Positions 32,945-33,613 of a stretch of 64,000 nucleotides of DNA are shown here, in pieces; the stretch's first letter is position 1; the number at the start of each line of letters is the position of its first letter. The notes under the pieces were generated by a model, which saw nothing but the letters and a program-made list of their open reading frames with translations, ran no database searches and was not told the DNA's origin. A program made the translations under genes and the position numbers. Source of the stretch: Octopus vulgaris (lineage: Eukaryota); assembly GCA_951406725.2 (NCBI GenBank), contig OX597817.1, positions 83,266,001-83,330,000 on the forward strand, in the 5' to 3' direction.

Positions 32945-33613
32945 TTTTGTGGTTATGGAACCTAGCTGTTCTTTCTAGCGAGTTGAATCCCACGAGTGGA
33001 TTCCTTATGTGTTGAAATGTACACTGTATTTTATGACTAATACATAGTCTTTGGACTAAATTTTTACACGTTAGGCCACTGGAAATGGAAATGTTAATTA
33101 AAATTTCCATTTCCCTTTGATATGATTAAGTATTGTAAGTTTTTGGATACTTTTCGGTTTTTAAAAGTTAGCATTTTTTTATTGCCGGCGAAGGGCTGCG
33201 GCTCCGCAGTAGATTTTGAAAAAGTAGGATGTATAAACAAGAGGCACAAAGTTTGATCGCCTCGTGTTTATATATTTAACCGAAGGTGTTCCTGCTGAGG
33301 ACGATTTCACCTAGCGAGTATATGTTATTTTACTTGCTAAACGAAAATCAGAAACCAATTGGTCCAGGAAACTATATGGTAAAATGTTTTTCCTTTTTCA
33401 TTTCGTTCATGTCGAACCTTATCCCTAATTTTATGGTTATGGAACCTAGCTGTTCTTTCTAGCCTGTTGAATCCCACAAGTGGATTCCTCATGTGTTTAA
33501 ATGTACACTGTATTTTATGACTAATACATAGTCTTTGGACTACATTTTTACACGTTAGGACACTGGAAATGGAAATTTTAATTAATTTCCATTTCACTTT
33601 GGTATGATTAAGT
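32945..33613 (+). mobile_element. Retrozyme or Penelope pseudo-LTR unit: ~185-bp direct repeats (period 484) around an intact hammerhead, ending in (TA)n
   Basis: GGTTATGGAACCTAGCTG...TATGATTAAGTAT occurs at 32951 and 33435. Confidence 0.75.
33289..33370 (+). ncRNA. Type I hammerhead ribozyme, intact core, extended helix II
   Basis: UUCCUG CUGAGGA cGAUUUC..UAGCGAGUA-loop-UACUUGCUA..GAAAAUCa GAAAC CAAUUG GUC CAGGAA. Predicted cleavage after 33364. Confidence 0.88.

What the first reader, a model, noticed from the sequence alone, without database searches (positions are those of the whole stretch)
32945..33613. Best retrozyme candidate: 484-nt repeat unit with an intact hammerhead
Seen: ~185-bp diverged direct repeats at 32951 and 33435 make about 1.4 units of a 484-nt monomer. 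Inside is a fully canonical hammerhead with a 6-bp helix I, an extended two-part helix II, palindromic ACCAAUUGGU helix III and a GUC site at 33364. The unit is non-coding and runs directly into (TA)n. Inference: more than one permuted unit is what reverse transcription around a circular RNA, or from a tandem pseudo-LTR, would leave.
Basis: partly seen in the sequence, partly recalled or inferred. Interest (0 to 1): 0.8.

Follow-up and report, generated by a model that had tools for sequence, protein, structure and literature searches.

The report
Non-coding Penelope-type mini-element with hammerhead
This is one old, worn copy of a multi-copy 484-base jumping element that encodes no protein, carries a self-cutting RNA motif and inserts the way Penelope-type retrotransposons do; it belongs to a known kind of element, and the circular RNA proposed for it has not been shown.

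Summary
The anatomy is real: A (32943-33133), B (33134-33426), A' (33427-33615), then (TA)47. A and A' are 93% identical and 484 nt apart, which makes 1.39 units. A type I hammerhead lies at 33289-33370, cutting after 33364. It is not 'fully canonical': helix II opens with a C.A mismatch, helix III is a 10-nt palindrome, and Rfam finds no hammerhead. This is the Penelope-like-element (PLE) style.

Contigs of three probable DNA runs show a single-copy flank and a multi-copy family. The ORF-less A-B-A order recurs at other, diverged loci. Several copies have inverted 5' ends, a PLE hallmark also seen in a 73%-similar relative at 48.7 kb.

Best reading: a non-autonomous, ORF-less PLE derivative (a retrozyme in the broad sense), copied by a PLE protein that starts reverse transcription about 250 nt downstream of the ribozyme. 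This copy has about 3% private changes and one hammerhead, so it cannot release a 484-nt circle. The 1.4-unit layout does not require a circle, and about half the family depth has U in place of core C3. Not shown: cleavage, expression, circles, two-hammerhead source copies, the partner element. New member of a known kind; interest 0.35.

The parts
32943..33133 (+). A: 3' tail of an upstream, 5'-truncated unit (acts as the pseudo-LTR). The 5' junction with unique DNA is at about 32941-32943.
   Evidence: single-copy flank contigs of X1, X5 and X6 end at 32971-32972; depth rises from about 48 to about 80,000 at 32925-32959; the best-supported loose ends before 32943 resemble 33400-33426.
33134..33426 (+). 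B: head and middle of the 484-nt unit, non-coding, containing the hammerhead. GTAAGT at 33135-33140 and an AG at 33284-33285 could bound an intron (inference only).
   Evidence: table 8: contigs with 7-13% differences span 33135-33367 in three runs; no Pfam hit at cut-off. for the GT/AG positions.
33289..33370 (+). Type I hammerhead of PLE style: 6-bp helix I, CUGAGGA, C.A mismatch, two-part helix II (5+9 bp), GAAA, 10-nt palindromic helix III (dimer-capable), GUC cut after 33364.
   Evidence: in a 94-nt fragment helix I pair probability is 0.68-0.97, but 0.01 in the full unit; palindrome self-duplex -13.0 kcal/mol. No Rfam match.
33427..33615 (+). A': 3' tail of the full unit. Structured, ending in a 12-bp hairpin about 20 nt before the 3' end, which is the inferred start site of reverse transcription.
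   Evidence: z -3.67, 0 of 200 shuffles fold as well; structure shared with the 48.7-kb relative.
33565..33596 (+). Terminal hairpin of A' (33081-33114 in A).
   Evidence: In the three-sequence alignment, 3 of its 12 pairs change on both sides in the 48.7-kb relative and 5 are broken in at least one sequence.
33613..33706 (.). (TA)47 microsatellite abutting the 3' end; inferred target. No TA tract and no target-site duplication is visible on the 5' side.
48657..48940 (+). Diverged relative of the A tail (73% over 97 nt) with an inverted 5' copy (arms within 48657-48843, 87.5%) and (TA)n on both sides. A different family with the same end architecture; not part of the insertion.
   Evidence: (E 1.7e-8 within the window).

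Best explanation
A dead, fairly old genomic copy of a non-autonomous, ORF-less Penelope-like element whose 484-nt unit is a stand-alone pseudo-LTR. Proposed cycle: (1) A source locus with tandem units is transcribed (inferred). (2) The RT/GIY-YIG protein of an autonomous PLE binds the structured A tail. Neptune-type is the likeliest partner, since it both carries hammerheads and favours microsatellites (inferred). (3) The protein nicks TA-rich DNA and starts reverse transcription inside the RNA, just 3' of the terminal hairpin and about 250 nt downstream of the hammerhead cut site (inferred from the 3' end at 33615 and by analogy with PMC11167929). (4) It copies back through the uncut hammerhead and stops at a variable point, here after 1.39 units, sometimes adding an inverted piece (end products shown; mechanism inferred). 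The hammerhead can cut only weakly or as a dimer through its palindrome, and is probably not required for insertion (inferred). This copy, with one hammerhead and about 3% private changes, cannot produce unit-length RNA.
For: Multi-copy family, single-copy flank: flank depth 48.5/47.8/5.5 in X1/X5/X6 versus 67-500 times that at the B sites tabulated from 33150 to 33333 and 430-6,300 times at 32981, 33014 and 33343-33392 (summed contig depth is not a copy number). At 33204, 53, 68 and 45 contigs carry the majority base. ORF-less order recurs: 4 of 32 listed pieces bridge the tail-to-head junction 33133/33134 with at least 31 nt on each side and 11-24 differences from the window, so they come from other loci; the 33426-to-32943 join appears in all 4 runs; only 1-2% of laid contigs run on into unlike sequence. 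PLE signature: 8 of 15 listed joints are opposite-strand joins, those in X1 and X5 at near single-copy depth, and 3 of the 8 are seen in two or more runs; the 48.7-kb relative shows such an inversion directly. Partial tandems, inverted 5' copies, (TA)n bias and non-autonomous pLTR-forming elements are described for PLEs (PMC8557442). The hammerhead matches PLE traits: a base between positions 9 and 10.1, G10.1-C11.1, long helix II, palindromic helix III (PMC4209133). Cleavage looks dispensable: C33295 (core C3) is T in 51/55/44% of depth, and PLE RT starts internally on unprocessed RNA regardless of hammerhead mutations (PMC11167929). Age: at the 3 listed sites where A departs from a family majority above 90%, A' has the majority base; A-A' distance is 0.061, about 0.03 each; the same insertion is present in three runs whose flanks differ from the window by 4-7 of 571 nt.
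Against: No autonomous partner was found, so PLE mobilisation is inferred from signatures. No listed contig spans a whole unit, so tandem copies with two hammerheads are inferred, not seen. Tables were cut: 522 loose ends, 19 joints, 40 variant rows and 5148 pieces were not shown, so a low-copy ORF-bearing form, or a compensating change at G33300, could be hidden. Loose ends before 33332 (listed for X5, X6 and X19; median 59-66 nt in the two DNA runs) and the roughly 5-8-fold depth step at 33333-33343 could mark a different upstream sequence in a more abundant parent. There is no TA tract on the 5' side. Opposite-strand joints were called at 80% likeness, where the tool warns of artefacts. Known retrozymes with a mismatch at the base of helix II do cleave and form circles (axolotl HHR_Amex2, PMC7229834), so a circular intermediate remains open.
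Confidence: 0.55

Rival explanations
1. A true non-LTR retrozyme. Tandem source loci give multimeric RNA, dimeric hammerheads cut it into 484-nt monomers, a host ligase closes them, and a PLE RT copies more than once around the circle, giving 1.39 units. Same family as in the best explanation, but with an obligatory circular intermediate.
For: The ORF-less unit closes on itself at other loci. The copy extends past the cut site, so its template was uncut or re-ligated. The circular monomer folds at z -4.2, 0 of 100 shuffles, 64% paired. The palindrome allows dimer cleavage (-13.0 kcal/mol). Molluscan retrozyme circles exist (mussel, 350-390 nt; PMC7229834). About 3% decay per copy is compatible with A and A' having been identical at insertion.
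Against: One hammerhead here. About half the family depth has U3 with no listed change at G8. Folding strength is not specific: 2 of 17 control stretches of this window reach z -3.9 and -4.8. In the whole unit helix I has pair probability 0.01, whereas most metazoan retrozyme circles are predicted to leave the ribozyme free to fold (PMC7229834). A and A' differ at a 2-nt indel that is polymorphic in the family (28/27/17% of depth), a weak hint of two unlike template units; it lies in a slippage-prone A run. 484 nt exceeds the 170-400 nt of described circles. Only 1 of 9 predicted Xenopus dimers cleaved in vitro.
Confidence: 0.27
2. Merely the 5'-truncated end of an autonomous PLE whose 3' UTR/pseudo-LTR is internally repeated, or a rare gutted by-product of an abundant parent, with no independent non-autonomous family.
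For: Depth is several-fold to tens-fold higher over 33343-33426 and the core of A than over most of B, as 5' truncation would give. Loose ends before 33332 show another upstream sequence. PLEs cover 6.83% (190 families) of Octopus vulgaris (PMC13282606 supplement), the kind of host suspected here.
Against: B is continuous in many diverged contigs in three runs and is joined to A on both sides at other loci. The best-supported loose ends before 32943 all resemble the end of B, not an ORF. Only 1-2% of laid contigs run on into unlike sequence. No PLE domain was found in 232 frames scanned across the window.
Confidence: 0.15
3. A local segmental duplication of the A tail after insertion, making the 1.4-unit layout an accident of this locus.
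For: A and A' differ by 6%.
Against: The A-to-B junction is bridged by 4 of 32 listed contigs from other loci, with 11-24 differences from the window.
Confidence: 0.03

Closest known systems
Animal non-LTR retrozymes as non-autonomous PLE pseudo-LTR derivatives (Cervera & de la Pena 2020, PMC7229834; Li, Clavereau & Pollet 2026, bioRxiv 10.64898/2026.07.22.740005)
   Same: Non-coding, low-GC (35.5%) unit of a few hundred nt with a type I hammerhead, head-to-tail joins, many copies, structured monomer. The length is within the 51-972 bp range of Li 2026.
   Different: One hammerhead in this copy, so it counts as a 'monomer' in Li's scheme. PLE-style rather than loop-loop canonical ribozyme. No target-site duplication seen. 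Fixed 3' end on (TA)n and inverted 5' ends. Larger than the 170-400-nt circles shown experimentally. No circle or cleavage shown. Li's sample, as given in the text, had no mollusc.
Pseudo-LTRs and hammerheads of endonuclease-bearing Penelope-like elements (Cervera & de la Pena 2014, PMC4209133; Craig et al. 2021, PMC8557442; Frangieh et al. 2024, PMC11167929)
   Same: Partial tandem, 5' truncation, inverted 5' copies, (TA)n target, hammerhead with a base between 9 and 10.1, long helix II and palindromic helix III, 3' end downstream of the hammerhead just after a stem-loop.
   Different: No RT/GIY-YIG ORF between the repeats. Extra A before G12. Helix II is two-part and about 49 nt long. The 10-nt palindrome is longer than in minimal PLE hammerheads.
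Non-autonomous Chlamys PLEs such as MRC1 (PMC8557442)
   Same: ORF-less elements that form pLTRs and head-to-tail insertions.
   Different: Those are green-algal, and Chlamys mostly lack canonical hammerheads.
Octopus Naiad PLEs (Naiad_Obim, Naiad_Ovul; PMC8557442 supplement)
   Same: (TA)n preference in a host of the suspected kind.
   Different: Five short motifs of this unit gave 0 matches in that supplement (exact match, + strand only, line breaks could hide a match). By eye, the 3' ends in part 24 show no homology beyond a short terminal word. Naiads lack canonical hammerheads.

Membership tests
Type I hammerhead ribozyme | Conserved core CUGANGA / GAAA / UH with helices I-III | tested here: met
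   0 of 60 simulated windows give such a motif.
Type I hammerhead ribozyme (canonical form) | Helix II closed directly by a 10.1-11.1 pair; match to the curated family | tested here: not met
   C33302.A33350 mismatch; no Rfam hammerhead hit at E<=10.
Type I hammerhead ribozyme | Self-cleavage | not testable with these tools
   Contigs cannot show RNA ends; no raw-read run was listed.
PLE-type hammerhead (PMC4209133) | Base between 9 and 10.1, G10.1-C11.1, long helix II, palindromic helix III | tested here: met
   C33302; G33303-C33349; 5+9 bp; ACCAAUUGGU. One extra base before G12 is not in the published description.
Non-LTR retrozyme | No protein-coding capacity | tested here: met
Non-LTR retrozyme | Multi-copy unit with head-to-tail joins | tested here: met
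   tables 2, 5 and 8.
Non-LTR retrozyme (active copy, Li 2026) | At least two consecutive units each with a complete hammerhead | tested here: not met
   One hammerhead at this locus; definition. This concerns this copy only.
Non-LTR retrozyme (family level) | Dimers or multimers elsewhere in the genome | tested here: inconclusive
   All adjacencies of the unit recur, but no listed contig spans a unit; no genome is held.
Non-LTR retrozyme | Expressed as unit-length linear and circular RNA | not testable with these tools
   Only contigs of a guessed RNA run were available.
Penelope-like element insertion | Partial tandem (pLTR), 5' truncation, inverted 5' copies | tested here: met
   A-B-A' layout; 8 of 15 listed joints are opposite-strand; relative at 48657-48940.
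Penelope-like element insertion | Microsatellite/AT-rich target without clear TSD | tested here: met
   (TA)47 at the 3' end, no TSD seen; the 5' side is AT-rich but not (TA)n.
Autonomous Penelope-like element | RT plus GIY-YIG ORF between pLTRs | tested here: not met
   No such domain in 232 frames scanned; frames under 55 aa outside 31.3-33.6 kb and low-complexity frames were left out.
Neptune versus Poseidon versus Naiad partner | RT phylogeny and linker motifs of the mobilising ORF | not testable with these tools
   No linked ORF was recovered.

The most novel reading that the evidence does not exclude
A cephalopod family of 484-nt circular retrozyme RNAs whose genomic copies carry unmistakable PLE footprints: a fixed internal RT start about 250 nt past the cut site, inverted 5' ends and a (TA)n target. 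Its structured 190-nt tail, kept with compensatory changes in a 73%-similar family, would be the recruitment signal for the PLE protein. A co-amplified subfamily with a U3 core would be a natural control. Together these would make two open questions directly testable in one genome: which machinery mobilises animal retrozymes, and whether cleavage and circularisation matter for PLE-type transposition.
Probability: 0.25. Interest if true: 0.6.

Novelty: new member of a known kind. Interest (0 to 1): 0.35.

Why it matters
That animal retrozymes are ORF-less PLE pseudo-LTR derivatives is already proposed in print, from co-occurrence and sequence trees in vertebrates (bioRxiv 10.64898/2026.07.22.740005). 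This family adds insertion footprints (inverted 5' ends, a fixed 3' end on TA repeats) in what is probably a cephalopod. Searches for a described cephalopod example found none: (hammerhead, retrozyme, octopus), (cephalopod plus hammerhead ribozyme: 4 records, 2 works), judged from listings and a few read passages. The family may still sit in repeat libraries that I could not see (Repbase, Dfam, the O. vulgaris library of PMC13282606). Its value is as a test case: a conserved tail structure as candidate RT-recruitment signal, and C3 versus U3 subfamilies for asking whether cleavage matters. The locus itself is an inert old insertion.

Tried and rejected
No whole genome is held, so copies could not be counted or mapped.

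Rfam: nothing at gathering score in the window; 8 weak matches at E<=10 in 32700-33700, none a hammerhead. ARAGORN found 0 tRNA genes in the window.

An 18-nt motif scan of metagenome contigs gave 16 loci. All 16 are chance: the best extensions are 23 nt at 100% and 48 nt at 79%, and none has the hammerhead 5' half. Viral contigs gave 0 and genome contigs 0.

Pfam scans of 29+134+69 frames found no RT or GIY-YIG anywhere in the window.

Expression: no RNA holder was listed. The guessed RNA run X19 covered 11 of 30 bins with 75-136-nt pieces and nothing at 33170-33309. This is no evidence for or against transcription or circles. Only 4 of the 24 listed runs were laid, on 32400-33430, which holds one unit plus flank.

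Fold stability as evidence of a circRNA: rejected as non-specific.

The covariation test rests on 3 sequences (two families) and a structure derived from them: 6 of 44 pairs change on both sides, against 0-2 when slid. This is suggestive only.

The tandem ~230-nt repeats at 26.6 kb and 58.3-59.0 kb were checked as possible further retrozymes. They have no hammerhead hit and look like tRNA-type SINEs (recalled).

Octopus Naiads as source: no match.

An intron at 33135-33285 ending just before helix I, as in D. virilis Penelope: no supporting joint among the 15 listed, so unproven.

Lunse et al. 2017 (PMC5785218) is not held. Supplements of the Li 2026 preprint were not seen and may list related families.

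Full report
SETTING. The window is AT-rich eukaryotic DNA (27-39% GC per 2 kb), full of microsatellites, short interspersed repeats and mariner relics. I read it as octopus-like from recalled SINE motifs; no call tested this. No whole genome is held.

OBSERVATION. The region is A (32943-33133), B (33134-33426), A' (33427-33615), then (TA)47 at 33613-33706. A and A' are 93.2% identical (11 substitutions, one 2-nt indel) and 484 nt apart, so the insertion is 673 nt or 1.39 units. The hammerhead has a 6-bp helix I, CUGAGGA at 33295-33301, a helix II of 5+9 bp, GAAA at 33351-33354, the palindrome ACCAAUUGGU and a GUC site ending at 33364. None of 60 simulated windows gave so strict a motif. It is not fully canonical: C33302 faces A33350 at the base of helix II, and Rfam has no hammerhead match even at E<=10. 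Alone (94 nt), helix I forms with probability 0.68-0.97; in the whole unit it is 0.01. No frame in or near the unit has a Pfam hit at cut-off.

FAMILY EVIDENCE. I laid contigs of 4 of 24 listed runs on 32400-33430 at 80% likeness. The flank is single-copy (depth 48.5, 47.8, 5.5 in X1, X5, X6). Its contig enters the element and stops at 32971-32972 in all three, with 7, 7 and 4 differences in about 571 nt, so the same insertion is present in runs with three different organism labels. Inside the element, summed depth is 67-500 times the flank at the B sites tabulated from 33150 to 33333, and 430-6,300 times at 32981, 33014 and 33343-33392; at 33093 it is 94-155 times. The tool warns that this is not a copy number; 45-68 contigs per DNA run carry the majority base at 33204.

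What precedes 32943 elsewhere is, in the best-supported loose ends, the end of B. The 33426-to-32943 join is listed in all four runs. Four of 32 listed pieces bridge the opposite junction (33133/33134) with 31 nt or more on both sides and 11-24 differences from the window, and further pieces with 7-13% differences run through B. So every adjacency of the ORF-less unit recurs at other loci, though no listed contig spans a full unit. Only 1-2% of laid contigs continue into unlike sequence. Eight of 15 listed joints are opposite-strand joins, three of them in two or more runs. The tables were cut (19 joints, 522 loose ends, 40 variant rows and 5148 pieces hidden). One listed class of loose ends, before 33332, together with a 5-8-fold depth step at 33333-33343, may mark a second subfamily or a more abundant parent with another upstream sequence; I could not resolve this.

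AGE AND STATE OF THIS COPY. At 32981, 33014 and 33093 copy A departs from a 92-100% family majority and A' has the majority base. Nine further sites in B depart from a majority of 81-100%. The A-A' distance is 0.061, about 0.03 per copy if they began identical. On the scale used in PMC13282606 (0.09 = 25 My) that is roughly 8 My, valid only if the host is an octopus. With one hammerhead, a transcript of this locus could be cut once but not released as a 484-nt monomer.

THE HAMMERHEAD IN THE FAMILY. C33295 (core C3) reads T in 51, 55 and 44% of depth. G33299 (the free N7) reads A in 41-48%. T33290 in helix I reads A in 53-63%. No change at G33300 (G8) is listed, although it could be among the hidden rows. 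C3 and G8 form a pair whose single mutants abolish cleavage in a PLE hammerhead (C3G, G8C; PMC11167929), and a U3-A8 covariant is known in Schistosoma PLEs (PMC4209133). A U3.G8 subfamily would therefore probably be weak or dead; this is inference and was not measured.

A RELATIVE IN THE WINDOW. 48657-48940 matches the A tail (73% over 97 nt). It has an inverted 5' copy (87.5% arms) and (TA)n on both sides. The tail folds well (A': z -3.67; relative: z -2.39, 3 of 200 shuffles as good). A shared structure has 6 of 44 pairs changed on both sides, 3 of them in the terminal hairpin, but from only three sequences.

MECHANISM. PLE insertions are 5'-truncated partial tandems, often with an inverted 5' copy, and some clades target (TA)n without visible duplications; non-autonomous pLTR-forming PLEs exist (PMC8557442). 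PLE hammerheads have a base between 9 and 10.1, G10.1-C11.1, a long helix II and a palindromic helix III, and cleave weakly as dimers (PMC4209133; PMC6765202). The one PLE reconstituted in vitro nicks AT-rich DNA and starts reverse transcription inside the RNA at a stem-loop downstream of the hammerhead, using mainly uncut RNA; dead hammerheads do not reduce insertion (PMC11167929). This accounts for a 3' end about 250 nt past the cut site, right after a hairpin, and for 1.39 units, without any circle.

Shown here: the anatomy, the multi-copy ORF-less unit, inverted ends, the TA junction and the decay. Inferred: the source loci, the partner protein, the internal start and the role of the tail. 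I give this reading 0.55, a circle-dependent retrozyme cycle 0.27, a mere tail of an ORF-bearing PLE 0.15 and a local duplication 0.03.

Points for the circle: the template passed through the cut site; the monomer is structured (z -4.2); a helix II mismatch does not prevent cleavage in an axolotl retrozyme. Points against: two of 17 control stretches fold as well; the U3 share; a family-polymorphic 2-nt indel that differs between A and A' (weak).

COMPARISON AND NOVELTY. It works like a non-autonomous PLE and sits in the class that Li et al. 2026 call retrozymes derived from pLTRs. This copy fails their two-hammerhead criterion, and circular RNA, the defining result of Cervera 2020, is untested. 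I found no cephalopod example in four searches, but I could not see the repeat libraries; O. vulgaris has 190 PLE families covering 6.83%. Earlier AI notes from other genomes describe similar PLE end-pieces; none matched this sequence or place. I treat them as leads only.

PAPERS SEEN. 10.64898/2026.07.22.740005: parts 1-3 of 5, supplements not seen. PMC4209133: parts 1-2 of 4. PMC7229834: parts 2-4 of 6. PMC11167929: parts 1-2 of 4. PMC8557442: passages, two supplement searches and supplement part 24 of 59. PMC13282606: passages and one supplement search. PMC6765202: passages. PMC5785218: nothing (not held). Others: search listings only.

VERDICT. Real, well supported as an ORF-less PLE-type mobile family with a PLE-style hammerhead; the retrozyme circle is possible but unshown, and cannot come from this locus. 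New member of a known kind; interest 0.35.

Noticed in passing
window 48240-48292 (-), 46640-46715 (-), 44965-45015 (-), 18440-18490 (+), 11335-11395 (+): Further hammerhead-like motifs. Four have palindromic helix III segments and an unpaired or mismatched base pair opening helix II, like the finding; two have a damaged core. They suggest several PLE families in this genome.
   Followed up: partly
window 46640-46715 and 47065-47140: By eye, a decayed inverted counterpart of the 46708 hammerhead-like motif lies on the + strand and runs into (TA)n; a possible PLE inverted insertion.
   Followed up: no
window 48657-48940: Diverged relative of the A tail with an inverted 5' copy and (TA)n on both sides.
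   Followed up: yes
window 33135-33140 and 33284-33285: A GTAAGT donor-like word directly after the tail-to-head junction and an AG just before helix I could bound a ~150-nt intron, as in D. virilis Penelope; no read support.
   Followed up: partly
loose ends before 33332 (X5, X6, X19) and behind 33092 (X1, X5): Other subfamilies: one differs upstream of the distal helix II, another has a different sequence in the terminal hairpin. The first might lead to the autonomous parent.
   Followed up: no
window 45433-45823 and 46100-46479: Two 92%-identical ~390-nt elements in inverted orientation around a SINE; the ends resemble non-autonomous Helitron/Helentron elements (recalled, not tested).
   Followed up: no
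window 6715-6934, 7441-7662, 26644-27111, 28649-28868, 29509-29719, 58301-59026: A ~220-230-nt repeat family, in places as dimers, trimers and inverted copies, with strong folding (z -4.8 and -3.9); it looks like a tRNA-type SINE (recalled) and has no hammerhead hit.
   Followed up: partly
window 162-617, 2285-2500, 2742-2906: Mariner transposase relics (Pfam Transposase_1, HTH_48).
   Followed up: no
window 30834-31304 (-): A frame ending in a stretch that resembles the C-terminal endonuclease of R4/Dong-type LINEs (recalled); no Pfam hit.
   Followed up: no
window 60130-60810 (+): A 226-aa open frame with no Pfam hit at cut-off; possibly an exon.
   Followed up: no
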